DNA of 64,000 bases from a phage, in sequence record PZ386972.1, one strand, 5' to 3'. The stretch's first letter is position 1. Each line of letters starts with the position of its first letter. The notes under the pieces were generated by a model. That model worked only from the letters and a program-made list of their open reading frames with translations, ran no database searches and was not told where the DNA came from. Made by a program: the position numbers and the translations under genes. Shown here in pieces: positions 3,929-29,910 of the stretch.

Positions 3929-4435
3929 TTACACCTTAAATTGCTGTAAGGATTTACACATTTCAAGATCCGGACTAAATTCTAGCATATAGCTAACAGC
4001 TTTTAAATCTTGAAGATTTATCCCAGTCCTACCGTTGACTATAACCGTTGGATACTGATACATCATAGCACCCGCATCATCAAGCACACACCAATGTTTG
4101 AGCTTATGCTTTTCAACGAAGCGAAGAACAGAATTACCCCTAGATAATCCACCTCCAGTAAAATCCGTTGTACCAAGAAAGCGATCGATAAGACCTAATC
4201 CGGTCATAATCTGAACGTTCTCCATCTCATTTCTAACAGAGAACCAAGATGATACCCCAACAATCATTATTGGGGAAGGACGAATAAAGTCCTGAAAAGC
4301 CTTGAGAAGTGGTTTGAAAACCCAGTCACTTCCAAAGAAAATCTTTTCATCATCAGGTGCATGATGGTGGGAGATGCTCGAATTGAGCACCCCATCAATA
4401 TCTAGAAAAATAATTGGAGTATTACTTATTTCCAT
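3929..4435 (-). CDS. HAD-superfamily phosphatase (nucleotidase-like)
   Basis: N-terminal FLDIDGVL motif (DxDxV/T) typical of HAD hydrolases. Confidence 0.5.
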   Translation of the reverse strand: MEISNTPIIFLDIDGVLNSSISHHHAPDDEKIFFGSDWVFKPLLKAFQDFIRPSPIMIVGVSSWFSVRNEMENVQIMTGLGLIDRFLGTTDFTGGGLSRGNSVLRFVEKHKLKHWCVLDDAGAMMYQYPTVIVNGRTGINLQDLKAVSYMLEFSPDLEMCKSLQQFKV

Positions 4436-4604: not shown

Positions 4605-4780
4605 ACCTGTTTCTCCTCATCTCCAGAGGAGAACCACATATTATCCGTAGTATAGATAATTTTATATGTGTATCCCAACCGTTTTCTTACACTAGGAAAC
4701 CTGTAGGCAAACCTATAACACCAAGTGCCAGACTCAGTTATAAAAATATCCCATTCATTATTTCTTGCTTCTCGACACAT
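4595..4780 (-). CDS. small hypothetical protein with WCYR motif (paralog of 4422..4604)
   Basis: ORF track; motif DIFITESGTWCYR. Confidence 0.35.
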   Translation of the reverse strand: MCREARNNEWDIFITESGTWCYRFAYRFPSVRKRLGYTYKIIYTTDNMWFSSGDEEKQVCP

Positions 4781-5576
4781 AAGGTCTACCCTCTAAATGA
4801 GCTTCTACACGAGCAATAAAATCAGGATCACTGAAAGCATCTACCGCACCCTTACTCCAATAAGGGATACTACGTTCTTCCAGCTGGTACATCTCACTAC
4901 GAGTCATACCCTGATAGCCTGGCTCCGCTGCTAGGGCACTATCATAGTAGTTAACTACCATAAATTTCGCAGCAGTCCTATTAAGAACAGGAAATAATTC
5001 CCAGTAGAAGTTAATTACTTGGTTAGAGCAACCAACCACAACGATCATATCTTGGCTGGTAATACCATCAAAAACATTGTACATTTCTGCATATGCTGGA
5101 GCATGCTCTCCAAAGAAGATTACATTAGGTTTAACCCATTTATAATCATCTGGATCAATAGAAGTATATCCTACATCAATAACCAGTTTATTGCTACTAT
5201 TGTAGCTATCAGCTACAACAACCTCTTTTAAATATCCGTGAATGTGCAGAATGTCACTATGTGGAACGCCAGCACGCTCAATAAGGTCATCGACGTTGGT
5301 AGTCAAGTTTACTACTTGACCTGGATATTGTTTATACCATTCACCAATACGCAAATGCGCAAGATTGGGTTCAACAGTTTTTAGCTCTTCACGACGCTTG
5401 TTGTAAAACATATGGGTTTTATGATAAAAATTACCACGAAAGGCATGAATATTACATACTTCTTCTAGATCATAATCATCCCACAATGCTTTACCACTAG
5501 CAGTATCAGTACGAAAAGCTCGTACACCACTTTCAACACTCAAACCTGCACCGCTAATAATAATTAATCTACGCAT
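4758..5576 (-). CDS. Sir2-family NAD-dependent deacylase/ADP-ribosyltransferase-like protein
   Basis: N-terminal IISGAGLSVESGVRAFR matches the sirtuin GAGxSxxSGIxxFR NAD-binding signature. Confidence 0.65.
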   Translation of the reverse strand: MRRLIIISGAGLSVESGVRAFRTDTASGKALWDDYDLEEVCNIHAFRGNFYHKTHMFYNKRREELKTVEPNLAHLRIGEWYKQYPGQVVNLTTNVDDLIERAGVPHSDILHIHGYLKEVVVADSYNSSNKLVIDVGYTSIDPDDYKWVKPNVIFFGEHAPAYAEMYNVFDGITSQDMIVVVGCSNQVINFYWELFPVLNRTAAKFMVVNYYDSALAAEPGYQGMTRSEMYQLEERSIPYWSKGAVDAFSDPDFIARVEAHLEGRPYVSRSKK

Positions 5577-14919: not shown

Positions 14920-15201
14920 ATGATTTCAGCCAAAGAAGCTCAAGAACTTGCAGGATTAACAGAAGTACCCGCATTTCTAAAGTTTATAGAAGAAAAGATT
15001 GTAGAAGCTGCTAAGTCTGGAAATACAGAAGTAATTATTCGAGATAATCCTTACGCTAGGTGGCTATATAATCCTAGAGAAATGCCAGGAGCAGCTAAAT
15101 CGGTACTAAAAACCTTATCGGATAAGGGGTATCATCTCTCACAATACTACCGAGAAGCCGCCTTTGTAGACATGGGTCTTAAAATTAGTTGGGAGGTATA
15201 A
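14920..15201 (+). CDS. hypothetical protein
   Basis: ORF track, RBS GGAGG upstream. Confidence 0.45.
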   Translation: MISAKEAQELAGLTEVPAFLKFIEEKIVEAAKSGNTEVIIRDNPYARWLYNPREMPGAAKSVLKTLSDKGYHLSQYYREAAFVDMGLKISWEV

Positions 15202-15677
15202 TGTCGGTTTTCCACATTTATACAGATGGTGCTTGTAAGTCTAATCCAGGTCCAGGTGCTTGGGGTTTTATTGTCTATGATGATAACGACGATCGTTTAG
15301 GTTCTAAATCTGGATATAGTCCTAAAACTACAAATAATGAGATGGAACTCACGGCTATTGTAGAAGCTCTACGTTGGTCTGTTAAAAAAGATAATAGACC
15401 AATTGCTATCTATACTGACTCTGCTTATTGCAAAAATGGCATGGAAAGTTGGATGTTTTCTTGGCAAAGGAAAGGCTGGAAGAAAGCAGATGGTGAAGTC
15501 CCTCTTAATCTAGAACTTTGGCAGGAAGCATTTAAATTAACACAGCAGTATATCAACTTTCACAATACTAATCCTACCTTTATTAAGGTTAAAGGACATT
15601 CTGGTATTAGTGGTAATGAAGCTGTAGATGCATTGTGTAACACAGTTATTACTGAGGCTGAAATGGCCGAGATGTGA
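15201..15677 (+). CDS. rnh: ribonuclease H
   Basis: HIYTDGACKSNPGPGAWGF and later DSAYC/HSG motifs typical of RNase HI; start taken at ATG 15201 with GGAGG RBS. Confidence 0.8.
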   Translation: MSVFHIYTDGACKSNPGPGAWGFIVYDDNDDRLGSKSGYSPKTTNNEMELTAIVEALRWSVKKDNRPIAIYTDSAYCKNGMESWMFSWQRKGWKKADGEVPLNLELWQEAFKLTQQYINFHNTNPTFIKVKGHSGISGNEAVDALCNTVITEAEMAEM

Positions 15678-15697: not shown

Positions 15698-15726
15698 TTG
15701 CTTAAAGCCACCTAATTTAGTATAAT
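15698..15726 (+). promoter_or_regulatory. T5-type early promoter
   Basis: TTGCTT-17-TATAAT. Confidence 0.6.
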
Positions 15727-15753: not shown

Positions 15754-16038
15754 ATGCGAATTTATAACTCAAATTCATTAGGATTTAAACCATTGAGAAA
15801 ACGTGCACAATCACCTCGTCAAATAAGAAAGGCTAATATTGGTGAGCCAGAAACACGTCTTCCACCTCCTCCAGAACAACGTTTAGTTTATCTGGACGAA
15901 GAATTAGCTGAACGCGAAAGAAAAGCTCAAGAAGAGATTGAGCGTAAGAAAATGTGTACTGCCCCAGCCTACTCCAAAGGGGCTTATCAGTATATCTATA
16001 CAGCCGAAGAGGCCAAAGATGCGGGGCGTAAAAAATGA
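15754..16038 (+). CDS. hypothetical protein
   Basis: ORF track, RBS GAGGAGGG upstream. Confidence 0.45.
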   Translation: MRIYNSNSLGFKPLRKRAQSPRQIRKANIGEPETRLPPPPEQRLVYLDEELAERERKAQEEIERKKMCTAPAYSKGAYQYIYTAEEAKDAGRKK

Positions 16039-16484
16039 AGATTACTGAATTTAAAGGTGCTTATAGTTTCTTATCTAACTTTTATTTATCACCAATTACT
16101 TTCGAATATCTGAATGAAATATGGCATGCTGATACTGTAGAACATGCTTTTCAGGCTATGAAATCCGACCAAAAAGATGATGTAGCTCATGTACTACGCT
16201 CCCTAAATGCAGGAGTTGCTAAACGTAGAGGACGTAAATTAATTCTACGCTCTGACTGGGATAAGGTAAAAGATGATGTAATGTTAGAGCTTTTACGGTT
16301 AAAGTTTGCAATCCCTGATTTGAGAGACAAACTGTTAGCAACAGAAAATGCAACTTTGATTGAAGGAAATACCTGGGGGGATACATATTGGGGTGTTTGC
16401 CGAGGCATCGGGGATAATACTTTAGGAGTTCTTTTGATGCAGGTAAGGTCTGAAATTAAAAGAAGCTTACAGTTAATAAATTAA
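16035..16484 (+). CDS. NADAR-domain (YbiA-like) protein
   Basis: FLSNFY...EHAFQAMK motifs characteristic of the NADAR/DUF1768 fold. Confidence 0.55.
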   Translation: MKITEFKGAYSFLSNFYLSPITFEYLNEIWHADTVEHAFQAMKSDQKDDVAHVLRSLNAGVAKRRGRKLILRSDWDKVKDDVMLELLRLKFAIPDLRDKLLATENATLIEGNTWGDTYWGVCRGIGDNTLGVLLMQVRSEIKRSLQLIN

Positions 16485-16492: not shown

Positions 16493-16521
16493 TTGCTAAA
16501 CGCTTCAAATTCTCGTATAAT
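16493..16521 (+). promoter_or_regulatory. T5-type early promoter
   Basis: AAAAATTCATTTGCTAAA...TATAAT...CATAAATTGA module. Confidence 0.65.
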
Positions 16522-16559: not shown

Positions 16560-17075
16560 ATGGCTAAGCAGAAAAACGCAAAAACTCAAGCAGCTCCGGC
16601 AGTTAAAACTTTCCCCCAGACTGAGGCTAACCGCAAAGCTCGTCTGGAACGCCACCTGCGTAAGCATCCTACCGATGCTCAGGCTGCGCAAGCACTGAAT
16701 AATCCGGCTCCGATTCGTCAAAAGCCGAAGGCTAAGAACGCTACTCGTTCTGTAGCCCGCCTTGTGACCTATGTACAGGGTTACGGTCACAAATCTGTTC
16801 CCGTAGCACTGAGTTTCAATGCTGGAGCAGAATTGTTCCCTCGTAATGGCATGGCCATGAAAGATTATGAGAAAGCAGTTAACCAGAAACGCAAACCAAC
16901 GGCAGATGTATTGCGTGATACTCGTGGACAGTTTGGTTCTGTTAAGCCAAATATCTTTGGCGTAGAGTATAGTAAAGATAATGTTCGTGCTCTGTGTTAC
17001 GGTGTAGGCATTAAGTTCACGGGTGATTCTGCTCGTAAATCTGCTAAACCAGCTCGTAAACGTAAAGAGAAGTAA
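16560..17075 (+). CDS. basic hypothetical protein (possible nucleic-acid binding)
   Basis: 171 aa, Lys/Arg-rich termini. Confidence 0.45.
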   Translation: MAKQKNAKTQAAPAVKTFPQTEANRKARLERHLRKHPTDAQAAQALNNPAPIRQKPKAKNATRSVARLVTYVQGYGHKSVPVALSFNAGAELFPRNGMAMKDYEKAVNQKRKPTADVLRDTRGQFGSVKPNIFGVEYSKDNVRALCYGVGIKFTGDSARKSAKPARKRKEK

Positions 17076-17138: not shown

Positions 17139-17354
17139 ATGTTCTCTAAGAAACCACGTTCTGTTACTGAAATCGTTGCTTCCTTTACCACTATCACTGA
17201 TGAGCTTCAAGCTCGTATTGAGGCTGATCAAAAAATTGCTGCGGATATTCAGAAACAGCAGGAAGAACTCGCTTTAAAGTTGGCTGAAACCAACAAGAGT
17301 GAAAAATCTGCCCAAACTATTATGGAAAATATCCTTAAACTGCTGGGCAAGTGA
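17139..17354 (+). CDS. hypothetical protein
   Basis: ORF track. Confidence 0.4.
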   Translation: MFSKKPRSVTEIVASFTTITDELQARIEADQKIAADIQKQQEELALKLAETNKSEKSAQTIMENILKLLGK

Positions 17355-22029: not shown

Positions 22030-22101
22030 CGGGGTGTAGTCTAAGGGAGAGGCAGGAGTCTTCTAAATTCCTTTATGCAGGTTCGAATCCTGTCACCTCG
22101 G
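22030..22101 (+). tRNA. tRNA-Arg (anticodon TCT)
   Basis: Acceptor CGGGGTG/CACCTCG, anticodon loop CTTCTAA, T-arm GCAGG-TTCGAAT-CCTGT, encoded CCA. Confidence 0.7.
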
Positions 22102-22138
22102 CCAATTTTATTAACTGTAACTAAAACAAAGGAAATAT

Positions 22139-23086
22139 ATGTTTAATACTAAAAATATGAAAGAACTGACTTCTGAGCAGAAAGTAATTCGTACTATTAA
22201 ACGTTGGGGTATTGGTGCTGTAGTTGGTTTAGCAGGCTTGATTCTAGCCTTTAATTCATATACTATTGTTTCTGATGGTACGGTTAAAACTCAAACATTC
22301 CTGGGTAAAGTAGATCCTAATCCAGTATTGCCGGGTTTCCATCTTGTAAACCCGTTTGCATCTTTCGATACTTTTAGTACAAAAGATATTGCTGTAAAAT
22401 TAGATAAACTTCAGGTTCCTAGTCAGGATAAGTTTAAATCCACTGTTGACCTGACTGTTATGTTGCAATTTGATGGTTCTAAGGCACCGATTAACCGTAT
22501 TAACGCAGGTACTCAGGATCAGGCACTAGACAAGTATGTAACTGAAAAATTACTGTCTACTATTCGTGAGTTTGGTAAGTCTGTACCTAAAGCACAAGAT
22601 TTGTTTGATGCTAAAATTCAGGCTCAATTGCAAACTGCAATTCAACAGGAAGTTGAAGAGTATGCGCGCCCATATGGTTACACAGTTAAGCAGGTATTCC
22701 TTCAGGATATTACCTTGCCGCCAGTAATCATGGAACAGGTACAGAATACCAAAGTTCGTGAAGAGCAAGTTAATGCTGCGAAAGCTGAACTTGCTCGCGT
22801 TGAACAGGAAGCACAGCAAAAAGTTAAACAAGCAGAAGCAGATCGTGAAGCTCGTAACAACCAAGCTATTGCTAATGAACGTGACGCAGATGCTAAACTG
22901 TACGCAGCTAAGAAAGAAGCTGAAGCTAACGCCGCATTGCAACGTACCATTACTCCTGAAATGATTCGTTGGAAACAACTGGAAGTTGAAATGATCCGTG
23001 CTCAGAAGTATCAAGGTGGTGTACCTCAGACTGTGGTAGGTACTGGCTACGATGGTCAAATGATCATGGATATGCGTAATAAATAA
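22139..23086 (+). CDS. SPFH/band-7 (HflC/prohibitin-like) membrane protein
   Basis: N-terminal TM helix, SPFH-like core, C-terminal Ala/Glu-rich coiled coil. Confidence 0.55.
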   Translation: MFNTKNMKELTSEQKVIRTIKRWGIGAVVGLAGLILAFNSYTIVSDGTVKTQTFLGKVDPNPVLPGFHLVNPFASFDTFSTKDIAVKLDKLQVPSQDKFKSTVDLTVMLQFDGSKAPINRINAGTQDQALDKYVTEKLLSTIREFGKSVPKAQDLFDAKIQAQLQTAIQQEVEEYARPYGYTVKQVFLQDITLPPVIMEQVQNTKVREEQVNAAKAELARVEQEAQQKVKQAEADREARNNQAIANERDADAKLYAAKKEAEANAALQRTITPEMIRWKQLEVEMIRAQKYQGGVPQTVVGTGYDGQMIMDMRNK

Positions 23087-23110
23087 TACCCGCATGTAAC
23101 ATCTGAAGTA

Positions 23111-23146
23111 AGCCCTGCGTTTCCTGGAGAGCGCAGGGCTTTTCTA
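23111..23146 (+). terminator. rho-independent terminator
   Basis: AGCCCTGCG...CGCAGGGCT hairpin followed by TTTTC. Confidence 0.6.
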
Positions 23147-23182
23147 TATAATGTAATTATAAAACTAACTAGGAGATTAAAC

Positions 23183-23701
23183 ATGGGTGTTGATGAATTA
23201 ACACAGCATCTTCTATCTAGAGGATTTGATGCGGATAAATATCATTGCTGGTTAAGTCCGGAAGGATGGCTAACAGTCCCGTTGTATGATTTCTCTGGGA
23301 TGTTGAGGGGCTATCAAACTTATAATCCTTCTGCTCCAAAAGGTCATGGTAAGTGTCCCTTTGAAGCTAAATATTTTACCTATTCTACTACCCAGTGTGT
23401 ATGGGGATTAGAAACTCTCAATGGAGATGAAAAAGTAGTATTGATCGCTGAATCTGTATTTAAGGCAGTTGCGTTACATAATGCTGGTTATCCAGCCCTA
23501 GCAATGTTGGGTTCTTCTCCAGGAAAAGCGTTATTAAAGCAACTGAAATTATTACCTTTTAAATTGGTAGCTGTCGGGGATAACGATCCTGCGGGTGAAA
23601 AATTTGCTAGAAAATTAAACGGCTTTGTTTCTCCTGTAGATGTGGATGAGATGTCTACAGAAAACTTGAAAAATTTTCTTGCTATGAAGCTAAATTTCTA
23701 A
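23183..23701 (+). CDS. Toprim-domain protein
   Basis: Conserved acidic residues LIAESVFKA and VGDNDPAGEKFA resemble the Toprim E and DxD motifs. Confidence 0.4.
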   Translation: MGVDELTQHLLSRGFDADKYHCWLSPEGWLTVPLYDFSGMLRGYQTYNPSAPKGHGKCPFEAKYFTYSTTQCVWGLETLNGDEKVVLIAESVFKAVALHNAGYPALAMLGSSPGKALLKQLKLLPFKLVAVGDNDPAGEKFARKLNGFVSPVDVDEMSTENLKNFLAMKLNF

Positions 23702-23707
23702 TATAAT
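23679..23707 (+). promoter_or_regulatory. T5-type promoter overlapping the 3' end of the upstream CDS
   Basis: TTGCTA-17-TATAAT ending about 15 nt before tRNA-Ser. Confidence 0.5.
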
Positions 23708-23722
23708 ATATCTTATAAATTC

Positions 23723-23808
23723 GGAAGAATAGCATAACGGTATTGCAGCAGATTGCTAATCTGTCGGTTTGAAATATAGCCTTGTGGGTTCGATTCCCAC
23801 TTCTTCCA
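23723..23808 (+). tRNA. tRNA-Ser (anticodon GCT), class II
   Basis: Acceptor GGAAGAA/TTCTTCC, anticodon loop TTGCTAA, long variable arm, T-arm GTGGG-TTCGATT-CCCAC, CCA encoded. Confidence 0.8.
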
Positions 23809-23817
23809 CCAAATTCT

Positions 23818-23892
23818 GGTTCTCAAGCTCATATGGTATGAGCACCCGGCTCATAACCGGAAGGTACGTAGGTTCGAATCCTCGGGGAGCCA
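23818..23892 (+). tRNA. tRNA with CAT anticodon (Met or Ile2)
   Basis: Acceptor GGTTCTC/GGGAGCC with wobbles, D-arm GCTC...GAGC, anticodon loop CTCATAA, TTCGAAT T-loop (imperfect T stem), CCA encoded. Confidence 0.6.
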
Positions 23893-23914
23893 CCAAATTA
23901 AATAAGGACAACTA

Positions 23915-24103
23915 ATGGAATTATTCATAGTTTCTGTTAAATTTGCACAAGATAGAGAACGTTCGGATGAGTTTAAACAAGGGTACAGACTAGTAAAGGC
24001 TACATCTGAACTCCATGCTATGGACAAAGTAGTAGACTATATGTATAATGTAGAAGATGTTTACTACGTCAATGCTTTAGAAGCCTCAAAAGTAATTAAC
24101 TAG
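23915..24103 (+). CDS. hypothetical protein
   Basis: ORF track. Confidence 0.4.
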   Translation: MELFIVSVKFAQDRERSDEFKQGYRLVKATSELHAMDKVVDYMYNVEDVYYVNALEASKVIN

Positions 24104-24112
24104 GGAGACTAT

Positions 24113-24289
24113 ATGTCTAAGTTTCAAGAACTCAAGCAAGAGCTAGAAGAGTGTGCCTGCCCTGAGTGTAGGGGAATTGGTGAAAGTTCTGATGCAGAAG
24201 CAGGAGATACTTTTTGCAATATCTGGGTTTGCCCAAATTGCAGTGGTACAGGTATTAATCCTAACTGCGGTATTTCCCCTAGATATTGA
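24113..24289 (+). CDS. small Cys-rich (zinc-ribbon-like) protein, 58 aa
   Basis: ATG 24113; CxxC...CxxC pairs (CPECRG, CPNCSG); below track cutoff. Confidence 0.35.
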   Translation: MSKFQELKQELEECACPECRGIGESSDAEAGDTFCNIWVCPNCSGTGINPNCGISPRY

Positions 24290-24400
24290 ACGAGGGTAAC
24301 ACCTGTGAAACTAAAAGATTATTATATTGGTTGGTTTGTGGGACTAGTAGTAGGATTTTCACTAGGCTATAATATGTATCAACTAATAAACTGATTACAT

Positions 24401-24474
24401 GGGGGTGTAATCGAATTGGCATAGGTACTGGACTTAAAATTCAGGTTTTGTGGGTTCGAATCCCACCACCCCTA
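24401..24474 (+). tRNA. tRNA with TAA anticodon (Leu by anticodon) but class I architecture
   Basis: Acceptor GGGGGTG/CACCCCT, anticodon stem CTGGA/TTCAG, loop CTTAAAA, 5-nt variable loop, T-arm GTGGG-TTCGAAT-CCCAC, CCA encoded; weak D stem. Confidence 0.5.
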
Positions 24475-24652
24475 CCAACTTAAGGAAATAAGATGTATAG
24501 ACATCCACCTCCGCCAACACGTCGTTCTAGAGAAGTTATCCTCATGGAATTGACGAAAAACTTCAAGGCAACTCTTGAAGATAGAGATCTAGGCACGGAT
24601 GAAGACATTGATTTTATTTGTAGACTATTAAAGATGAAACTGGAGAAACAAC

Positions 24653-24859
24653 ATGGCTAATCCTGAAATTACCGCACAACGTTTCATGCTTAAAGGCATG
24701 ATTGCTGAGGCAGGTATGACCCAAGAGGTTGCAGACTTTCATAAGCAATTTCTTGATATTATAACTCTAGCTAAAGAGACAGGAGAAAGAGAACACGGAG
24801 CAGCAATTATGGCTATATCTCTTATTAGCCTAGACTTAGCTGAAGAATCTGGAGTTTAG
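24653..24859 (+). CDS. hypothetical protein
   Basis: ORF track. Confidence 0.4.
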   Translation: MANPEITAQRFMLKGMIAEAGMTQEVADFHKQFLDIITLAKETGEREHGAAIMAISLISLDLAEESGV

Positions 24860-24889
24860 CTCCTCCAAACAGAATTTTTAAAAATGTAC

Positions 24890-24919
24890 TTGCCTTTTGC
24901 TTTAAATTTCTGGTATAAT
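24890..24919 (+). promoter_or_regulatory. T5-type early promoter
   Basis: TTGCCT-18-TATAAT. Confidence 0.55.
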
Positions 24920-24949
24920 AGTTATATAAATTGATGAAGGAGTTAACGA

Positions 24950-25225
24950 ATGCAAAATCGTGTTATAGCAACTGGTATTGAAAGTGCAATCTGTAAATCC
25001 TGGGAAGGCTGGGAAGGTGAGATTGAATGGCTTTATTTCTACGATGTAGAACTTCTGCCGGAAGTTAAAGCTAAATGTGTTGAAGCTGGCATGGCTCCAG
25101 ATGCAAAAGCTGATATTGATATTTCAATGTCTGAACTTAAAGGTCGTGTAATTACTGTTAGTGATGAGGGCGAAGAAGTTTTCGAACTTCCATTCTCCTT
25201 AACTGTCGCTCCTAAGTTCGACTAA
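24950..25225 (+). CDS. hypothetical acidic protein
   Basis: ORF track. Confidence 0.4.
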   Translation: MQNRVIATGIESAICKSWEGWEGEIEWLYFYDVELLPEVKAKCVEAGMAPDAKADIDISMSELKGRVITVSDEGEEVFELPFSLTVAPKFD

Positions 25226-25261
25226 CTAATACAGCACTGAGCAAGTTCTTTAAAATTTGAC

Positions 25262-25290
25262 TTGCTCAGTGCCATAAAACTTGATATAAT
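25262..25290 (+). promoter_or_regulatory. T5-type promoter; its -35 lies in the 3' arm of a long terminator-like inverted repeat
   Basis: CAGCACTGAGCAAG...CTTGCTCAGTGC inverted repeat at about 25232-25273, then TTGCTC-17-TATAAT. Confidence 0.55.
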
Positions 25291-25353
25291 AGTTATCTAA
25301 TTTGGAAACATATCTAAAAGTGTTTAAACTAGTATTTGAATACTTTTAAATAT

Positions 25354-25438
25354 GGGCGTTTATTCCGTAGATGGTAGCGGAGGGGATTGTAAATCCCTGG
25401 TCATTGCGACTCGAGTGGTTCGACTCCATTAACGCCCA
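25354..25438 (+). tRNA. tRNA-Tyr (anticodon GTA), class II
   Basis: Acceptor GGGCGTT/AACGCCC, anticodon loop TTGTAAA, long variable arm, T-arm GTGG-TTCGACT-CCAT, CCA encoded. Confidence 0.8.
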
Positions 25439-25459
25439 CCAAATTTAAAGGTAAAATAT

Positions 25460-25942
25460 ATGTACACTGATAGAATTGTTCAAGAAGCTGCAAACAGAGG
25501 TCTTATTGATCTGGGATCACCAGTTGATATAACTAAAGAGCTAATAACAGAGAGCCTTACGTTTGGCACAGCTAACTTTGGCCGAGATAGTAACCGTCGG
25601 TATAGCTTGAAACTATCAGCATTATCTTTTATTAAGTACAATAAGAGTATTGGAGAAAAATCAAGTTGTGGTTTTATCTACGCGATAACTAATCCAGCTT
25701 GGACTGATTATGTAAAAATTGGCATGTCTTCTGACCCAAAAACAAGATTAGCCAATTACCAGACATATTCTCCACTACGTGACTATAAGTTAATACATTG
25801 GTCATTTTGGTTTAATGCTAGAGAAGCAGAGAAAATGCTTCATAATAGCTTTCCAAAAAGAATTAATGAATGGGTAGTTTTGGACAGAAGTGTAGATGAA
25901 ACACTTGCTGATTTTAATAAACTATCTAATAAACAATTTTAA
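25460..25942 (+). CDS. T5orf172/GIY-YIG-like domain protein (homing-endonuclease-like) embedded in tRNA cluster
   Basis: GFIYAITNPAWTDYVKIGMSSDPKTRLANYQT matches the GIY-YIG-related T5orf172 signature. Confidence 0.5.
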   Translation: MYTDRIVQEAANRGLIDLGSPVDITKELITESLTFGTANFGRDSNRRYSLKLSALSFIKYNKSIGEKSSCGFIYAITNPAWTDYVKIGMSSDPKTRLANYQTYSPLRDYKLIHWSFWFNAREAEKMLHNSFPKRINEWVVLDRSVDETLADFNKLSNKQF

Positions 25943-25943
25943 T

Positions 25944-26015
25944 GCACCTATCATCTATCGGTTAGGACATCAGGTTTTCAACCTGAGAAGCTTGGTTCGA
26001 TTCCGTGTGGGTGTA
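25944..26015 (+). tRNA. tRNA-Glu (anticodon TTC)
   Basis: Acceptor GCACCTA/TGGGTGT, anticodon stem TCAGG/CCTGA, loop TTTTCAA, TTCGATT T-loop, CCA encoded. Confidence 0.7.
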
Positions 26016-26026
26016 CCAAATTCTGC

Positions 26027-26100
26027 ATTCCTAGAGTGTTACTGGACAGCATGTCGGTCTCCAAAACCGTACGGTCTAGGTTCGAGTCCTAGTAGGTTTG
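26027..26100 (+). tRNA. tRNA-Trp (anticodon CCA)
   Basis: Anticodon loop CTCCAAA, T-arm CTAGG-TTCGAGT-CCTAG, CCA encoded; acceptor stem has two U-U mismatches. Confidence 0.55.
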
Positions 26101-26109
26101 CCAAAATTT

Positions 26110-26181
26110 GCACCTTTAGCTGAGATGGATTAGCGCTTGCCTGAAGAGCTTGAGAGGTTCGTTCGATACGAACAGGGTGCA
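26110..26181 (+). tRNA. tRNA-Phe (anticodon GAA), tentative
   Basis: Acceptor GCACCTT/AGGGTGC, loop CTGAAGA, T-arm GTTCG-TTCGATA-CGAAC, CCA encoded; anticodon stem weak. Confidence 0.5.
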
Positions 26182-26201
26182 CCAAATTGAGGGAGCTGCT
26201 G

Positions 26202-26474
26202 ATGCATCCTGAAAACTTCTTTATTTACTGCGCGGATAAGTTGCTGAAACGTAGAATTAACAAAGTCTATCATTATCGTGCTAGTCAACAGCCTTATGTA
26301 TACGCTTTTGACGGTGATCACATCCCATTAGAACAACTATCTTGTGATTACATGATATTGAAGAACTTTGACGAGACAAAGATCTCAAGCGTTCATAATC
26401 GACAGAATCCCTTAACGTGGAAATATAAGAAGAAAAAGAAAGGCATCAAATTCTTAAAAAATGTAGTTGCTTAG
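26202..26474 (+). CDS. hypothetical protein
   Basis: ORF track (TTG 26187); ATG 26202 with GAGGGAG RBS preferred. Confidence 0.4.
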   Translation: MHPENFFIYCADKLLKRRINKVYHYRASQQPYVYAFDGDHIPLEQLSCDYMILKNFDETKISSVHNRQNPLTWKYKKKKKGIKFLKNVVA

Positions 26475-26495
26475 TTTCCAAAAGTTCTGTATAAT
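26467..26495 (+). promoter_or_regulatory. T5-type early promoter
   Basis: TTGCTT-17-TATAAT. Confidence 0.6.
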
Positions 26496-26523
26496 AATTA
26501 CATAAATTGAACTGGAGAAGCAA

Positions 26524-26811
26524 ATGAAACGATTAGTTAGATTTAAGTGTTGTGGTTCTGAACATATTTTCACACATCTTCGTGAATTTAAAATGTGTGA
26601 TTGTGGTAAATCAGGCTATGACTCAGGAGATGGGTTCTACACCCGTACTCTAGGGAACTTCAATGATCTAGAATTTGAAGATCTCGAAAAACAAGAAAAA
26701 GAATTATGTATCTGTTATGAATGTGGTGATCAAGATTACTACTCTAAAACAGGTAAGAAAGTGTGTAGCAATTGTGGTTCCGATCATGTAGCTACACATT
26801 ATGAAAGATAA
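26524..26811 (+). CDS. zinc-ribbon protein with four CxxC pairs
   Basis: CCGSEH, CDCG, CICYECG, CSNCG motifs. Confidence 0.45.
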   Translation: MKRLVRFKCCGSEHIFTHLREFKMCDCGKSGYDSGDGFYTRTLGNFNDLEFEDLEKQEKELCICYECGDQDYYSKTGKKVCSNCGSDHVATHYER

Positions 26812-26816
26812 TAAAC

Positions 26817-26889
26817 CGACCGTTGGCTGAATGGCTTAGGCGAAGGATTGCAAATCCTTTTTATGTGAGTTCAAATCTCATGCGGTCGT
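26817..26889 (+). tRNA. tRNA-Cys (anticodon GCA)
   Basis: Acceptor CGACCGT/GCGGTCG, anticodon stem AAGGA/TCCTT, loop TTGCAAA, T-arm GTGAG-TTCAAAT-CTCAT, CCA encoded. Confidence 0.75.
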
Positions 26890-26892
26890 CCA

Positions 26893-27044
26893 ATTTGCTG
26901 AAAGAATTGTTAAATCAATTCAGGCACGCGTAGGAACACTGTCTCCGTAATTGAAAGATGAGACACGGTTTGGAGAGGTATGCCGCTACACGCTACGGTG
27001 CTAACTCCGTCTAGGTGAAAATCCTAGTCAGCAATATAAATTTA
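26893..27044 (+). ncRNA. about 150 nt structured spacer between tRNA-Cys and tRNA-Asn (candidate small RNA)
   Basis: Hairpins such as GTCTC...GAGAC; no ORF. Confidence 0.25.
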
Positions 27045-27124
27045 GGGTCGTTAGCCAAGCGGTTTGGCGGTGGACTGTTAATCCATGTCGAAAGACAACG
27101 TAGGTTCGAATCCTACACGGCCCG
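27045..27124 (+). tRNA. tRNA with GTT anticodon (Asn) and unusually long 13-nt variable arm
   Basis: Acceptor GGGTCGT/ACGGCCC, D-arm GCCA...TGGC, anticodon stem GTGGA/TCCAT, loop CTGTTAA, variable GTCGAAAGACAAC, TTCGAAT T-loop, CCA encoded. Confidence 0.65.
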
Positions 27125-27229
27125 CCAAATTCTGTGTAGAGTTAAGTAAACCGGTAGCCAACCAGCTATCATTGCTGACATCGAATTCAGCCACAGATAC
27201 CATTTTCATTAATAACTGAGGAAACAAGC

Positions 27230-27415
27230 ATGTCCAAGAATGTAATTGCACAGTTAGAAGTTCATCGTGATAACACAGCTAATAACATTAAGTGCCGACA
27301 AAAAGATATTGAAGCTCAAAAGGCTGATCTTTTAATGAGTATTCGAGAGCTTAATGTACGAAAAGAGTTTCTTAAAGAACTTAATGCAGCTATTGAAAAA
27401 CTCAAAGCTGAGTAA
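27230..27415 (+). CDS. small coiled-coil protein
   Basis: ORF track. Confidence 0.35.
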   Translation: MSKNVIAQLEVHRDNTANNIKCRQKDIEAQKADLLMSIRELNVRKEFLKELNAAIEKLKAE

Positions 27416-27424
27416 ATGAATTAT

Positions 27425-27498
27425 GCGACCGGGGCTGGCTTGGTAATGGTACTCCCCTGTCACGGGAGGGAATGTGGGTTCGAATCCCATCGGTCGCG
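27425..27498 (+). tRNA. tRNA-Asp (anticodon GTC)
   Basis: Acceptor GCGACCG/CGGTCGC, anticodon stem CTCCC/GGGAG, loop CTGTCAC, T-arm GTGGG-TTCGAAT-CCCAT, CCA encoded. Confidence 0.8.
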
Positions 27499-27678
27499 CC
27501 AAATAAGGTAGGTTAGCTATGGAACGTAGGGAGTTTACTCCGGAAGAGATAGAGCAGATAAAAGAATCTGCTATGAAAAATGCTAGAATATCTCTGTCAC
27601 TGGAAGGTATCATTATAAGTGATGTAAACTTTGAAAAAATCAAAGCCATAGCTGATGAACTGGAAAAAGTAATTTAAT

Positions 27679-27751
27679 ACATCCATAGCTCAATGGTTAG
27701 AGCTACCGCCTCTTAAGCGGAGGGTTCTAGGTTCAAGTCCTAGTGGGTGTA
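27679..27751 (+). tRNA. tRNA-Lys (anticodon CTT)
   Basis: Acceptor ACATCCA/TGGGTGT, D-arm GCTC...GAGC, loop CTCTTAA, T-arm CTAGG-TTCAAGT-CCTAG, CCA encoded. Confidence 0.65.
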
Positions 27752-27780
27752 CCAAACTAAACTAGCACGAGAAATATGCT

Positions 27781-28128
27781 ATGATTAATGCTAAAGAAGA
27801 GTTGTTACTTGCCCTAAAGAATACTAAGTCTGAAGTTAAGTGTATTAAGATAGAATTCGGTTATTATGGGAACAAAGAAGTTTGGATATTACCCGTAGGT
27901 TATACAGAAAAAGATATTGAAGATTTTCTAAATAATCTAGACTTCAAATATGATTCTGGTTTCGGTGGACAATTGCTTTACGGTAACGTATGGTTTACTG
28001 ATGGAACTTGGTTAGAGCGTGGTGAATATGATGGTTCTGAATGGTGGGAGTATAAGACTACACCAGCAATCCCAGAAGAATGCCGAACAATTAATGGTGA
28101 AGTAGATCGTACTTTACTATTAAATTAA
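27781..28128 (+). CDS. hypothetical protein
   Basis: ORF track. Confidence 0.45.
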   Translation: MINAKEELLLALKNTKSEVKCIKIEFGYYGNKEVWILPVGYTEKDIEDFLNNLDFKYDSGFGGQLLYGNVWFTDGTWLERGEYDGSEWWEYKTTPAIPEECRTINGEVDRTLLLN

Positions 28129-28250
28129 CAAAATTTCAGTGCAGAACACGGAGCTAGCAATTCGGAAGTGCTGACTCATGATAGGCTGCCTATGTACTTG
28201 CGAAGCGGTCGTGTCCAAGACTCGGACTCTTGCACTGAAAACAATCAAAC

Positions 28251-28368
28251 ATTCTAGCGTGGTTGATGGGGAAACCAGCTTGGCTAGGGCAGAAGCTCGT
28301 TCGATTCGAGTGAAAGAATGGTTCTCGTAAGTCCGCACAAGTGATAACAGGTTCGAGTCCTGTCTAGA
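28251..28368 (+). ncRNA. 118-nt tRNA-like RNA: perfect 7-bp acceptor-like stem and canonical T-arm, no encoded CCA
   Basis: 5' ATTCTAG pairs with 3' CTAGAAT; T-arm ACAGG-TTCGAGT-CCTGT; internal second TTCGATT hairpin. Confidence 0.35.
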
Positions 28369-28383
28369 ATGACACTATAAAGT

Positions 28384-28494
28384 TTACTTATTATGTAGGT
28401 TCCGATAGATCGGCGGGTCTATTCTGGCATTTAAGAGAGGTCTCGCAAACTTCTTTGTCAGCCGTGGGGTTGATAGCCTCCAGGTGGCCTACAC
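28384..28494 (+). ncRNA. about 110-nt structured RNA closed by terminal helix
   Basis: 5' TGTAGGT pairs with 3' GCCTACA; internal hairpins; no ORF. Confidence 0.3.
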
Positions 28495-28520
28495 AATAAG
28501 TAAATTTATTAAAAATTCAT

Positions 28521-28549
28521 TTGCTATTCTGCTTAATTATCTGTATAAT
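28521..28549 (+). promoter_or_regulatory. T5-type early promoter
   Basis: TTGCTA-17-TATAAT. Confidence 0.6.
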
Positions 28550-28579
28550 ATATTTTATAAAGTGAGTTAACAAAATTAA

Positions 28580-28652
28580 CAGTGCGTAGCGCAGTTGGTA
28601 GCGTGGGAGCCTTGGATGCTTCGGGTCGCAGGTTCGAGTCCTGCCGCACTGA
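28580..28652 (+). tRNA. tRNA-Pro (anticodon TGG)
   Basis: Acceptor CAGTGCG/CGCACTG, D-arm GCGC...GCGT, loop CTTGGAT, T-arm GCAGG-TTCGAGT-CCTGC, CCA encoded. Confidence 0.75.
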
Positions 28653-28661
28653 CCAAACAAT

Positions 28662-28736
28662 TGCGGGTTAGATCTCTGGTAGAGATCGCTAGTCTCATAA
28701 GCTAGAAAGAGGTAGGTTCGATTCCTGCACCCGCTT
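28662..28736 (+). tRNA. tRNA with CAT anticodon (Met or Ile2)
   Basis: D-arm GATC...GATC, anticodon stem CTAGT/GCTAG, loop CTCATAA, TTCGATT T-loop, CCA encoded; 1-72 U-U mismatch. Confidence 0.6.
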
Positions 28737-28759
28737 CCATTTTAATAGAGGATTTCGAA

Positions 28760-28927
28760 ATGAAAGTATTTCGATTAGTAGTAAGTGACAAACGTTTAGG
28801 TAAGAATACCTCAAAATCCTTACTTGCTCATTATGGAAAAGATGAGAAAGAAGTAATGGCGGAGTTTGGGATTAATCACCCTTACTTGAAAGTTCACTCT
28901 ATTAAAGAAGTATATAATGGTTACTAA
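28760..28927 (+). CDS. small hypothetical protein (55 aa)
   Basis: ATG with GAGGA RBS between two tRNAs; below track cutoff. Confidence 0.3.
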   Translation: MKVFRLVVSDKRLGKNTSKSLLAHYGKDEKEVMAEFGINHPYLKVHSIKEVYNGY

Positions 28928-28928
28928 T

Positions 28929-29004
28929 AGATCGCTAGCTCAATAGGTTTAGTAGCATCCGACTTTTAATCGGAAGGTTCTGGGTTCGAGTCCCAGGCGA
29001 TCTA
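28929..29004 (+). tRNA. tRNA-Lys (anticodon TTT)
   Basis: Acceptor AGATCGC/GCGATCT, anticodon stem TCCGA/TCGGA, loop CTTTTAA, T-arm CTGGG-TTCGAGT-CCCAG, CCA encoded. Confidence 0.8.
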
Positions 29005-29026
29005 CCAATTTCAAGAAAAACGCAGT

Positions 29027-29054
29027 TGCTTGATGCTTAATTTCTTGTTATAAT
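29027..29054 (+). promoter_or_regulatory. T5-type early promoter
   Basis: TTGCTT-16-TATAAT. Confidence 0.55.
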
Positions 29055-29104
29055 ATTTATATAAATTGATGAGGATTTCTCCTCATCATAGTTCACTAAG
29101 GTAT

Positions 29105-29268
29105 TAGCTCGACCTAGGACTGGCTGCCAAAAAGCACGATCCCTACGATTCGGGAGAAGTTCTAGATTAGTCCACTAGATTCAGCGGCAACTGAATAGTG
29201 TATCGGGTTTGCGAGATGACGCGGTTCCTTCCGCTCGAAGCGAAGGTGCTGTAGTTACGCCGAGCTAA
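29105..29268 (+). ncRNA. about 165-nt structured RNA closed by TAGCTCG/CGAGCTA helix
   Basis: Long-range complementary 7-mers plus internal hairpins; no ORF. Confidence 0.3.
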
Positions 29269-29292
29269 TAGCCTTAGTAAACTAAAGAATTT

Positions 29293-29368
29293 GGGGAATG
29301 GGTCTGCATGGAGTGGACACCTCGCTTGCACCGAGGACATCAGAACGGTTCGATTCCGTTATTCTCCA
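29293..29368 (+). tRNA. tRNA-Ala (anticodon TGC)
   Basis: Acceptor GGGGAAT/ATTCTCC with G3-U70 wobble, anticodon stem CCTCG/CGAGG, loop CTTGCAC, T-arm AACGG-TTCGATT-CCGTT, CCA encoded. Confidence 0.75.
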
Positions 29369-29376
29369 CCAAATAC

Positions 29377-29450
29377 GCGTGATTGATGGAATTGGCATAC
29401 ATACCGTCCTTAGAAGTCGGGTTTTGAGGGTTCGAATCCCTTGTCACGCA
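29377..29450 (+). tRNA. tRNA with TAG anticodon (Leu by anticodon) but class I architecture
   Basis: Acceptor GCGTGAT/GTCACGC, loop CTTAGAA, 5-nt variable loop, T-arm GAGGG-TTCGAAT-CCCTT, discriminator A, CCA encoded; weak D stem. Confidence 0.5.
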
Positions 29451-29453
29451 CCA

Positions 29454-29565
29454 AATTTGATGGTCAGAGTAAATTAAACCTACTATCTCGGTTGAGCTGT
29501 TTTAATGGGTTCGAATCCCAGCGAGGCGTAACTGCCTGGCGTGATAGAGGCATCATCTTATTATT
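29454..29565 (+). ncRNA. about 110-nt segment containing an orphan T-arm-like hairpin (tRNA-like fragment or small RNA)
   Basis: TGGG-TTCGAAT-CCCA hairpin with no matching acceptor stem or CCA; AGGCGTAACTGCCT hairpin. Confidence 0.25.
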
Positions 29566-29653
29566 GGAAGAGCAAATCGAATTGGCGACGAAAACCGCTT
29601 GGAAAGTGGCTGACTGGTAAAACGGCTTGAGAGTTCAAATCTCTCCTCTTCCG
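29566..29653 (+). tRNA. tRNA-Ser (anticodon GGA), class II
   Basis: Acceptor GGAAGAG/CTCTTCC, loop TTGGAAA, long variable arm, T-arm GAGAG-TTCAAAT-CTCTC, CCA encoded. Confidence 0.7.
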
Positions 29654-29668
29654 CCAAACAATTTATAT

Positions 29669-29760
29669 GGTAGGTCAATCCAATGGCTGGCGCTGGACTC
29701 CGACTTGAAATCGGTTGATCGTAGTGATACGGTGTAAGGGTTCGATCCCCTTACCTACCT
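29669..29760 (+). tRNA. tRNA-Ser (anticodon TGA), class II
   Basis: Acceptor GGTAGGT/ACCTACC, loop CTTGAAA, long variable arm, T-arm AAGGG-TTCGATC-CCCTT, CCA encoded. Confidence 0.7.
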
Positions 29761-29764
29761 CCAA

Positions 29765-29910
29765 GTCTTGAAGTATGCCGGAATCGGTAGACGGGGCTGC
29801 CTAAAAGGTTTATAGGGAACATCCACTCCCTACAACATACCTCATAAAGCGGCTGAGATAAATGGTCTATCTCGTGAAGGTTCAAGTCCTTCTGCTTCTT
29901 GATACATCTA
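29765..29910 (+). ncRNA. about 145-nt structured segment with D-arm-like and T-arm-like hairpins but no complete cloverleaf
   Basis: GAGATA-AATGGTC-TATCTC and GAAGG-TTCAAGT-CCTTC hairpins; no CCA. Confidence 0.25.

What the first reader, a model, noticed from the sequence alone, without database searches (positions are those of the whole stretch)
16035..16484. NADAR-domain protein: candidate ADP-ribose hydrolase / anti-DarT factor
FLSNFY and EHAFQAMK motifs place this 149-aa protein in the NADAR (YbiA-like) family, whose members process ADP-ribose derivatives and have been reported to reverse DNA ADP-ribosylation. In a lytic phage this is a plausible counter-defence gene against DarTG-like systems or a riboflavin/ADP-ribose salvage enzyme.
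Basis: partly seen in the sequence, partly recalled or inferred. Interest (0 to 1): 0.55.

Follow-up and report, generated by a model that had tools for sequence, protein, structure and literature searches.

The report
Known phage anti-DarT1 NADAR enzyme (AdfN)

Summary
The ORF at 16035..16484 (+) is real and encodes a 149-aa NADAR-domain protein. It scores 77 bits against Pfam PF08719 (cut-off 35). Its AlphaFold2 model has pLDDT 96.5, and the only significant PDB matches are the three solved NADAR structures. The catalytic residues E36, K43, E110, D116 and W119 are all present. Eight orthologues show purifying selection (pN/pS mostly 0.03-0.2).

The window is a T5-like phage (Markadamsvirinae). 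The protein is 148/149 identical (I70T) to bas32_0066 of phage IrisVonRoten (Bas32). I showed that bas32_0066 is the only NADAR in that genome, so it is the AdfN-Bas32 of Johannesman et al., Nat Commun 2025. In that study, ectopic expression neutralised DarT1 toxicity and rescued RB69, T5 and Bas25 on DarTG1 hosts, but did not rescue T5 on DarTG2.

T5 itself lacks the gene. It sits in a roughly 0.5-kb accessory module between the T5.090 homologue and the P-H207 early promoter, and about one fifth of T5-like genomes carry it.

A riboflavin or salvage role is unlikely to be the selected function. Verdict: already known, low interest. One point is still untested: the YbiA-type glutamate (E110) may also allow removal of cytidine-ADP-ribose.

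The parts
16035..16484 (+). adfN-type NADAR gene (149 aa). It is predicted to be a DNA guanine-ADP-ribose glycohydrolase. Catalytic and ligand-binding residues are E36, K43, E110, D116 and W119.
   Evidence: ORF. Pfam NADAR 77 bits. AF2 pLDDT 96.5, with Foldseek top matches YbiA 2b3w (TM 0.82), PnNADAR 8bau (TM 0.75) and G. lovleyi NADAR 8bat. 148/149 identical to Bas32 bas32_0066. Residues invariant in a 45-sequence MSA and in 71-72 of 72 phage homologues.
15754..16038 (+). Upstream cistron: the 94-aa homologue of T5.090 (phrog_4593, function unknown). Its stop codon overlaps the NADAR start (ATGA), so the two are probably co-transcribed and translationally coupled. It is a core T5-like gene, not a NADAR-specific partner.
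   Evidence: The junction is conserved in 8 loci. The gene family occurs in 541 phage records whether or not a NADAR is present.
15972..16484 (+). Accessory segment relative to phage T5: a divergent last ~20 codons of the T5.090 homologue plus the whole NADAR gene. The flanks on both sides are nearly identical to T5.
   Evidence: DNA alignment of the window, T5 and Bas32. T5 annotation shows T5.090 followed by promoter P-H207 and then T5.089, with no NADAR. The 94-aa C-terminal variant co-occurs with the NADAR: 97 records against 96.
15698..15726 (+). Sigma-70-type promoter (TTGCTT, 17-nt spacer, TATAAT) upstream of the T5.090 homologue. It is the likely early promoter that drives the two-gene unit including the NADAR.
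   Evidence: The sequence is identical in T5, where this stretch is annotated as a promoter (record 46337-46411). The expression timing is inferred, not measured.
16493..16521 (+). Equivalent of T5 early promoter P-H207 (TTGCTA, 17-nt spacer, TATAAT), which drives the downstream DUF7022 gene (16560..17075). It marks the 3' boundary of the NADAR module.
   Evidence: Promoter scan. Identical sequence in T5, annotated there as promoter P-H 207. Downstream gene identified by Pfam DUF7022.

Best explanation
The gene encodes an orphan, antitoxin-like NADAR enzyme of the AdfN class (anti-DarT factor NADAR).

Proposed mechanism: when the phage infects a host carrying the DarTG1 toxin-antitoxin defence, the DarT1 toxin uses NAD+ to attach ADP-ribose to the N2 amino group of guanines in phage DNA, and this blocks replication. 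The phage enzyme is probably transcribed early from the promoter in front of the T5.090 homologue and translated by coupling to that gene. It hydrolyses the N-glycosidic bond between the ADP-ribose and the guanine, which restores the base so that replication can proceed. It acts on the modification rather than on the toxin, so it needs no contact with DarT1.

Shown in the literature for a protein differing at one residue: it neutralises DarT1 toxicity in uninfected E. coli, it rescues RB69, T5 and Bas25 on DarTG1 hosts, and it has no effect on DarTG2.

Shown here: sequence near-identity, NADAR fold, an intact active site, purifying selection, accessory distribution, and absence from DarTG1-sensitive T5.

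Inferred: the I70 variant behaves the same way, the native gene is expressed early, and it protects this particular phage. The exact chemistry is also inferred, because in vitro hydrolysis has been demonstrated for DarG1, PnNADAR, YbiA and T4 AdfN but I found no in vitro data for the Bas32-type protein.
For: The window protein is 148/149 identical to bas32_0066. bas32_0066 is the only NADAR found in any of the six frames of the complete Bas32 genome, so it must be the published AdfN-Bas32.

AdfN-Bas32 neutralises DarT1 and restores plaquing of RB69, T5 and Bas25 on DarTG1, but does not restore T5 on DarTG2 (PMC11825919).

The single difference, I70T, lies at a family-variable position in a loop. 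The I70 form also occurs in other phages: L014, and vB_EcoS_HASG4 and EASG3, which encode a 100% identical protein.

The E-x6-K pair (E36, K43) and E110, D116 and W119 correspond to PnNADAR E43, K50, E125, D130 and W133, which contact ADP-ribose. They are invariant in homologues.

The fold is NADAR.

T5, the DarTG1-sensitive test phage, lacks the gene at an otherwise identical locus.

One GenBank record (Salmonella phage WP85) already labels the orthologue 'antitoxin-like enzyme'.
Against: In the text I could read, there is no deletion mutant of Bas32 or Bas33, no test of native DarTG1 resistance in these phages, and no in vitro assay of this clade's enzyme. Necessity in the native phage and the precise chemistry are therefore inferred.

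The closest characterised relative by sequence, E. coli YbiA (40% identity), hydrolyses G-ADPr in vitro but does not rescue cells from DarT1 (PMC11125620). In vivo potency therefore cannot be predicted from family membership alone and rests on the 148/149 identity.

The protein lacks both the basic N-terminal extension proposed to bind ssDNA in DarG1 and DarG1's catalytic Asp. How it engages DNA is unexplained.
Confidence: 0.87

Rival explanations
1. It is a YbiA-type metabolic 'damage pre-emption' enzyme: an N-glycosidase that destroys reactive riboflavin-pathway intermediates, or it takes part in ADP-ribose or NAD salvage. On this view it is carried by the phage for nucleotide and cofactor housekeeping alongside thymidylate synthase, DHFR and ribonucleotide reductase.
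For: E. coli YbiA is the best match by sequence and structure (40% identity, E = 1e-20; PDB 2b3w, TM 0.82). The protein hits TIGR02464 'riboflavin biosynthesis intermediates N-glycosidase' at 65.4 bits. It has the YbiA-type glutamate, E110. It lies in a block of nucleotide-metabolism genes.
Against: The TIGR02464 score is below the curated cut-off of 73.7, and far below YbiA's own 169.5. No riboflavin or NAD-salvage genes flank it. The gene is accessory, present in about one fifth of T5-like phages and absent from T5, which fits a conditional counter-defence gene better than housekeeping. The near-identical protein has a demonstrated anti-DarT1 phenotype, which YbiA lacks. A side activity on riboflavin intermediates is not excluded.
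Confidence: 0.05
2. Its main natural substrates are not DarT1-modified DNA. Instead it acts on soluble ADP-ribose-derived immune signals, or on ADP-ribosylated RNA or cytidine produced by other ADP-ribosyltransferases. On this view the anti-DarT1 effect is one facet, or a by-product, of a broader de-ADP-ribosylase.
For: Iyer et al. [quoted passage not shown] All NADAR families remove G-ADPr from RNA as well as DNA. NADARs with Glu at the third catalytic position (the NADAR and YbiA families) also remove cytidine-ADPr, whereas the Asp-type DarG1 and the His-type T4 enzyme do not (PMC12945103). The window protein and 72 of 72 related phage NADARs have Glu at that position.
Against: No such activity has been tested for this clade. 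No cytidine-directed or RNA-directed ADP-ribosylating defence of enterobacteria against T5-like phages is documented in what I read. The one function that has been demonstrated is anti-DarTG1.
Confidence: 0.08

Closest known systems
AdfN-Bas32 (anti-DarT factor NADAR of Escherichia phages IrisVonRoten/Bas32 and HildyBeyeler/Bas33; bas32_0066, QXV80247.1; Johannesman et al., Nat Commun 2025, PMC11825919)
   Same: 148/149 identical to the Bas32 protein and 146/149 to the Bas33 protein. Same locus, same ATGA overlap with the upstream gene and same flanking promoters. Same phage group (Tequintavirus, Markadamsvirinae).
   Different: There is one substitution, I70 instead of T70, at a non-conserved loop position. 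This I70 form is also found in other phages.
E. coli YbiA (N-glycosidase of riboflavin intermediates; PDB 2B3W; TIGR02464)
   Same: Closest solved structure and closest characterised sequence: 40% identity and TM 0.82. It has the same E-x6-K motif and the same YbiA-type catalytic Glu, together with D and W. YbiA also hydrolyses G-ADPr in vitro.
   Different: The window protein scores below the equivalog cut-off (65.4 against 73.7; YbiA scores 169.5). It lacks YbiA's ~15 N-terminal residues. It carries clade-specific conserved residues that YbiA lacks: Y/W17, K63, N112 and W114. YbiA does not rescue cells from DarT1 in vivo, whereas AdfN-Bas32 does.
AdfN-T4 (gp30.3; Pfam PF08010 Phage_30_3)
   Same: Same functional class: a phage orphan NADAR that reverses DarT1 guanine ADP-ribosylation. 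It shares the E36 and K43 catalytic pair, at the same numbering.
   Different: There is no detectable BLASTP similarity, and it belongs to a different Pfam family. It has His instead of Glu at the third catalytic position. AdfN-T4 needs a T-even infection context and cannot neutralise DarT1 on its own, whereas the Bas32-type protein can.
DarG1 (the DarT1-associated NADAR antitoxin, e.g. from E. coli C7 or Geobacter lovleyi, PDB 8BAT)
   Same: Same superfamily fold and the same reaction, guanine-ADPr hydrolysis. Both are functionally type IV antitoxin-like, acting on the modification and not on the toxin.
   Different: The window gene is not adjacent to a DarT1 gene. The protein has no basic N-terminal beta1-beta2-alpha1 extension. 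It uses Glu (E110) rather than DarG1's Asp two residues upstream, where the window protein has L108. Structural similarity is weak (TM 0.52, Foldseek E = 0.73) and no sequence hit was found.

Membership tests
NADAR superfamily (Pfam PF08719 / DUF1768) | Profile HMM match above the curated gathering threshold across the domain | tested here: met
   77.2 bits against a cut-off of 35.1, E = 2.3e-21, residues 9-142 matching profile positions 9-163 of 163.
NADAR superfamily (Pfam PF08719 / DUF1768) | Alpha-helical core flanked by small beta-sheets (the YbiA-like fold) | tested here: met
   AF2 model with pLDDT 96.5 and pTM 0.91. The only PDB matches with E <= 0.001 are YbiA 2b3w (TM 0.82) and PnNADAR 8bau (TM 0.75), and the third-ranked match is G. 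lovleyi NADAR 8bat.
NADAR superfamily (Pfam PF08719 / DUF1768) | Conserved catalytic Glu and Lys (E-x6-K) plus a third acidic residue, and the D and W that bind ADP-ribose | tested here: met
   E36, K43, E110, D116 and W119 align with PnNADAR E43, K50, E125, D130 and W133. They are invariant in a 45-sequence MSA and in 71-72 of 72 phage homologues.
AdfN (phage anti-DarT factor NADAR; a functional class) | Phage-encoded orphan NADAR with no adjacent DarT toxin gene | tested here: met
   The window is a T5-like lytic phage. The neighbours are thy, rnh, the T5.090 homologue, DUF7022 and an exonuclease. There is a single NADAR in the window.
AdfN (phage anti-DarT factor NADAR; a functional class) | Neutralises DarT1 and restores phage growth on DarTG1 hosts, with no effect on DarTG2 | not testable with these tools
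   Shown experimentally for AdfN-Bas32 (PMC11825919), which is 148/149 identical and is the only NADAR in Bas32. Not shown for the I70 variant or for this phage.
YbiA-type riboflavin-intermediate N-glycosidase (NCBIfam TIGR02464, equivalog domain) | Score at or above the curated equivalog cut-off (73.7 bits) | tested here: not met
   65.4 bits. E. coli YbiA scores 169.5. The 60%-identical phage relative P0005 only just passes at 76.5.
DarG1 antitoxin (DarT1-associated NADAR, BC4488 subfamily) | Encoded next to DarT1, with a basic N-terminal extension and a catalytic Asp in place of the YbiA-type Glu | tested here: not met
   No DarT neighbour. The NADAR core starts at about residue 3 of 149, so there is no extension. 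The protein has L108 and E110 where DarG1 has D171 and E173. PADLOC gave no DarG hit. 8bat matched only at TM 0.52.
T4-type phage NADAR (Pfam PF08010 Phage_30_3) | PF08010 profile match, with His replacing the conserved Glu | tested here: not met
   No PF08010 hit for the window protein, whereas T4 gp30.3 scores 237 bits. BLASTP against gp30.3 gives E = 1.1. E110 is retained.
NADAR family anti-phage protein DS32_2 (NCBIfam NF053876) | Score at or above the curated cut-off (240 bits) | tested here: not met
   43.6 bits. This is generic NADAR similarity only.

The most novel reading that the evidence does not exclude
The T5-like AdfN is a minimal NADAR core of 149 aa with a YbiA-type glutamate, unlike the Asp-type DarG1 and the His-type T4 enzyme. 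It may therefore be a broad-spectrum nucleic-acid de-ADP-ribosylase that removes cytidine-ADPr and RNA-linked ADPr as well as guanine-ADPr. If so, it could protect the phage against ADP-ribosylating defences not yet described, beyond DarTG1. Residues conserved in this phage clade but absent from YbiA (Y/W17, K63, N112, W114) would then explain why it works in vivo without any phage cofactor while the 40%-identical YbiA does not.
Probability: 0.25. Interest if true: 0.45.

Novelty: already known. Interest (0 to 1): 0.15.

Why it matters
The practical value is mainly annotation. Most GenBank records still call this gene 'hypothetical protein', 'swarming motility protein YbiA' or even 'GTP cyclohydrolase II'. 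It should be named adfN, an anti-DarTG1 NADAR. Its presence in roughly one fifth of T5-like phages predicts which therapeutic or typing phages of E. coli and Salmonella can grow on DarTG1-carrying strains. Scientifically nothing here is new, because the function was established in 2025 for a protein that differs by one residue. Three questions remain open. Does the native gene confer resistance? What makes this clade effective in vivo when YbiA is not? Does its Glu-type active site widen the substrate range?

Tried and rejected
1. I looked for the AdfN-Bas32 accession in the supplements of both the paper and the preprint. None are held as text. I replaced this with a six-frame HMM/phmmer scan of the complete Bas32 genome, which found a single NADAR.

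2. I considered membership in the DarG1, T4-type (PF08010), DS32_2 anti-phage NADAR and TIGR02464 equivalog families. All were rejected on tested criteria.

3. I tested for foreign base composition as a sign of recent acquisition. GC of the gene is 0.37-0.38, against 0.35-0.43 in the flanks, so there is no signal.

4. I followed Escherichia phage EP_H11 (43% identity) as a possible third T5-like NADAR lineage. Its genome layout is unrelated, so I dropped it.

5. I tried to map SCO5665 Trp53, proposed as a base contact, onto the window protein. It lies in an N-terminal segment that this 149-aa protein does not have, and the W53S mutant had no effect anyway.

6. The antisense ORFs inside the gene (16187..16408 and 16219..16386, minus strand) were treated as spurious. 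They lie wholly within a coding region under purifying selection, and I did not examine them further.

7. A literature search for newer AdfN work found nothing specific to the T5-like protein.

Full report
OBSERVATION. The quoted motifs are present, FLSNFY at residues 12-17 and EHAFQAMK at residues 36-43. The start codon overlaps the stop codon of the upstream 94-aa ORF (ATGA at 16035-16038), and a GGGG run lies 8 nt upstream. The two antisense ORFs inside the gene are almost certainly spurious.

FAMILY AND FOLD. Pfam assigns the NADAR domain (PF08719) with 77.2 bits against a gathering cut-off of 35.1 (E = 2.3e-21, residues 9-142). PHROGs assigns phrog_1017, of unknown function, at E = 1.5e-44. 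A sequence search of the PDB finds E. coli YbiA (2B3W, E = 7e-15) and the Phytophthora NADAR bound to ADP-ribose (8BAU, E = 1e-6). An AlphaFold2 model built on a 45-sequence alignment is very confident (pLDDT 96.5, pTM 0.91). Foldseek against the PDB returns as its top three matches exactly the three solved NADAR structures: 2B3W at TM 0.82, 8BAU at TM 0.75 and 8BAT at TM 0.52. Everything else is noise.

ACTIVE SITE. Schuller et al. 2023 (PMC11543638) identified the ADP-ribose-contacting and catalytic residues of PnNADAR as E43, K50, E125, D130 and W133. They also identified E88, K95 and D171 in the E. coli C7 DarG1. From the alignments, the window protein has the same E-x6-K pair (E36, K43), the YbiA-type glutamate (E110, equivalent to PnNADAR E125), D116 and W119. 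All five are invariant in my 45-sequence alignment. Across 72 divergent phage NADARs from IMG/VR, E36 and E110 are present in 72 of 72, and K43, D116 and W119 each in 71 of 72. The third catalytic position defines the subfamily: Glu in the YbiA and general NADAR families, Asp (two residues upstream) in DarG1, and His in T4-type phage NADARs. This protein is the Glu type.

WHAT THE WINDOW IS. The surrounding 5 kb is 94-96% identical to many T5-like phages (Demerecviridae, Markadamsvirinae, Tequintavirus) of Salmonella and E. coli. These include the BASEL phages IrisVonRoten (Bas32) and HildyBeyeler (Bas33). The local gene order is nrdB, frd, thy, a 93-aa ORF, rnh, the T5.090 homologue, NADAR, a DUF7022 gene (T5.089 homologue), small ORFs, and an Rv2179c-like exonuclease (T5.087 homologue).

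THE DECISIVE LINK TO PUBLISHED WORK. Johannesman et al. (Nat Commun 2025, PMC11825919) described the 'anti-DarT factor NADAR' (AdfN). Besides the T4 protein gp30.3, they found a NADAR in Bas32 and Bas33, which they named AdfN-Bas32. They showed that it neutralises DarT1 toxicity in uninfected E. coli. They showed that ectopic expression restores plaquing of RB69, T5 and Bas25 on DarTG1 hosts. They also showed that it does not help T5 against DarTG2, which modifies thymine. The window protein is 148/149 identical to Bas32 bas32_0066 (QXV80247.1), the only difference being I70 in place of T70. The paper's accession table was not available to me. I therefore scanned all six reading frames of the complete Bas32 genome with a NADAR HMM, with YbiA and with T4 gp30.3. 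bas32_0066 is the only NADAR in that genome, and the window likewise contains only one. The window gene is thus an orthologue of an experimentally characterised counter-defence gene.

Position 70 is a variable column of the family and falls between helices H59-67 and H75-90 in the model. The I70 form also occurs in another orthologue, L014. A 100% identical protein is encoded by phages vB_EcoS_HASG4 and EASG3.

SELECTION AND DISTRIBUTION. Eight orthologous genes give pN/pS mostly between 0.03 and 0.2. Only nine residue positions vary among them, and none is catalytic. 96 phage records encode a protein at least 95% identical, always as one copy per record. The upstream core gene family (T5.090, phrog_4593) occurs in 541 records. 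About one fifth of T5-like genomes therefore carry this NADAR.

Phage T5, which the paper uses as a DarTG1-sensitive phage, lacks the gene. In T5, T5.090 is followed directly by the early promoter P-H207 and then T5.089. A three-way DNA alignment shows nearly identical flanks and a clean extra segment in the window at about 15972-16484. This segment comprises a divergent 3' end of the T5.090 homologue plus the whole NADAR gene. The 94-aa C-terminal variant of the upstream protein tracks with the NADAR (97 records at >=95% identity against 96 for the NADAR), whereas T5 has the 92-aa form. Base composition is unremarkable.

A different T5-like phage, Salmonella phage vB_SenS_UTK0009, carries a NADAR that is only 60% identical, in a different slot of the same neighbourhood (rnh, then NADAR, then the T5.090-like gene). 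This suggests repeated acquisition in this region.

EXPRESSION (inferred). The stretch TTGCTT-17 nt-TATAAT at 15698-15726 is identical to a promoter annotated in T5 upstream of T5.090. TTGCTA-17 nt-TATAAT at 16493-16521 is the P-H207 equivalent. No terminator-like site separates the T5.090 homologue from the NADAR. The gene is therefore most likely the second cistron of a short early transcript that sits among replication and nucleotide-metabolism genes. That timing suits an enzyme that must keep replicating DNA free of adducts.

MECHANISM. The best-supported model runs as follows. DarT1 ADP-ribosylates guanine N2 in phage DNA. The NADAR hydrolyses the ribosyl-guanine N-glycosidic bond, using E36, K43 and E110 together with D116 and W119 for ribose and pyrophosphate binding, and this restores replication. 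The phenotype is shown for the one-residue variant. The chemistry is shown in vitro for DarG1, PnNADAR, YbiA, the sigma-70-linked E. coli NADAR and T4 gp30.3, but I found no in vitro assay for the Bas32-type enzyme. I also found no Bas32 deletion mutant and no test of native Bas32 or Bas33 resistance. Those steps are inference.

COMPARISON WITH KNOWN FAMILIES. By sequence the protein is closest to YbiA (40% identity, E = 1e-20). It nevertheless fails the curated equivalog threshold for the riboflavin-intermediate N-glycosidase, scoring 65.4 bits against a cut-off of 73.7, whereas YbiA scores 169.5. YbiA, although active on G-ADPr in vitro, does not rescue cells from DarT1.

The protein has no detectable similarity to AdfN-T4, which belongs to a separate Pfam family, PF08010, and carries His at the third catalytic position. 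It is not a DarG1 either: there is no adjacent DarT, no N-terminal extension and no catalytic Asp, the structural match is weak, and PADLOC gives no DarG hit.

The authors place AdfN-Bas32 near two archaeal NADARs and outside the YbiA group. My data only say that, among characterised proteins, YbiA is the nearest. Several positions are conserved in the phage clade and differ from YbiA: Y/W17, K63, N112 and W114. They are candidates for the functional difference, but this is speculative.

RIVALS. A housekeeping riboflavin or salvage role is unlikely to be the selected function. The equivalog score is sub-threshold, the context lacks pathway genes, the gene is accessory, and a DarT1 phenotype has been demonstrated.

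A broader substrate range remains open. Iyer et al. 2022 argued that phage NADARs mostly target soluble ADPr derivatives. A 2026 study showed that Glu-type NADAR and YbiA enzymes also remove cytidine-ADPr from DNA and RNA, whereas DarG1 and T4 gp30.3 do not. This protein is Glu-type, so cytidine-ADPr or RNA activity is plausible but untested.

VERDICT. The finding is already known. A protein differing at one non-conserved residue has been characterised and named, and at least one GenBank record already annotates the orthologue as 'antitoxin-like enzyme'. Interest is low. The remaining value lies in correcting widespread mis-annotation ('swarming motility protein YbiA', 'GTP cyclohydrolase II', 'hypothetical protein') and in the open questions about native necessity and substrate breadth.

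Noticed in passing
L001:3536-3985 (Bas32) versus L002:3536-3985 (Bas33): The paper states that Bas32 and Bas33 encode identical NADAR proteins. The GenBank records differ at two residues, A9T and E104K. The difference is minor and both positions are non-catalytic.
   Followed up: partly
L011:3501-3950 (Salmonella phage vB_SenS_UTK0009, OQ359889.1): A second NADAR lineage in T5-like phages, 60% identical to the window protein. It sits in a different slot of the same neighbourhood (rnh, then NADAR, then the T5.090-like gene, then DUF7022). This implies independent insertion, or an accessory-gene hot spot, next to rnh.
   Followed up: partly
window 15754..16038 (+): The 90%-identity protein cluster that contains the NADAR also lists 92-aa and 94-aa proteins that are in fact the unrelated upstream gene (T5.090 homologues). 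This is probably a clustering artefact, perhaps bridged by a read-through or fusion gene call across the ATGA overlap. No fusion sequence was seen.
   Followed up: partly
window 14920..15201 (+) and 17139..17354 (+): Two further small accessory ORFs are present or absent in different relatives. The 93-aa ORF (phrog_5321) between thy and rnh is present in Bas33 and absent from Bas32 and T5. The 71-aa ORF is present in Bas32 and absent from Bas33 and T5. The early region is a mosaic of small cassettes of unknown function.
   Followed up: no
window 4761..5576 (-) and 3932..4435 (-): There is a Sir2-family protein (PF02146, 87 bits; T5.102 homologue) and a HAD_SAK_2 'Swiss Army Knife RNA repair' HAD-domain protein. 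The latter is the T5.105 homologue, which the T5 record annotates as Sir2. These are further NAD/ADPr- or RNA-repair-related genes in the same phage, and their roles are unexamined.
   Followed up: no
window 22030..32428 (+): A cluster of 22 tRNA genes, typical of T5-like phages.
   Followed up: no
GenBank records OR847649.1, OR848833.1 and OR848924.1 ('Listeria phage LM 4-11-1' and 'LM 4-14-1'): Two short records (2-3.5 kb), OR847649.1 and OR848833.1, are labelled as Listeria phages but encode a protein 100% identical to the window's T5.090 homologue. A third record with the same label, OR848924.1, holds a NADAR only 38% identical to the window protein. The first two are likely mislabelled or contaminant fragments rather than true Listeria phages.
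   Followed up: no
window 15189..15677 (+): The longest rnh ORF starts at TTG 15189, but the annotated homologues (477 bp) correspond to the ATG at 15201. That ATG overlaps the stop of the preceding 93-aa ORF, which is another tightly packed junction.
   Followed up: no
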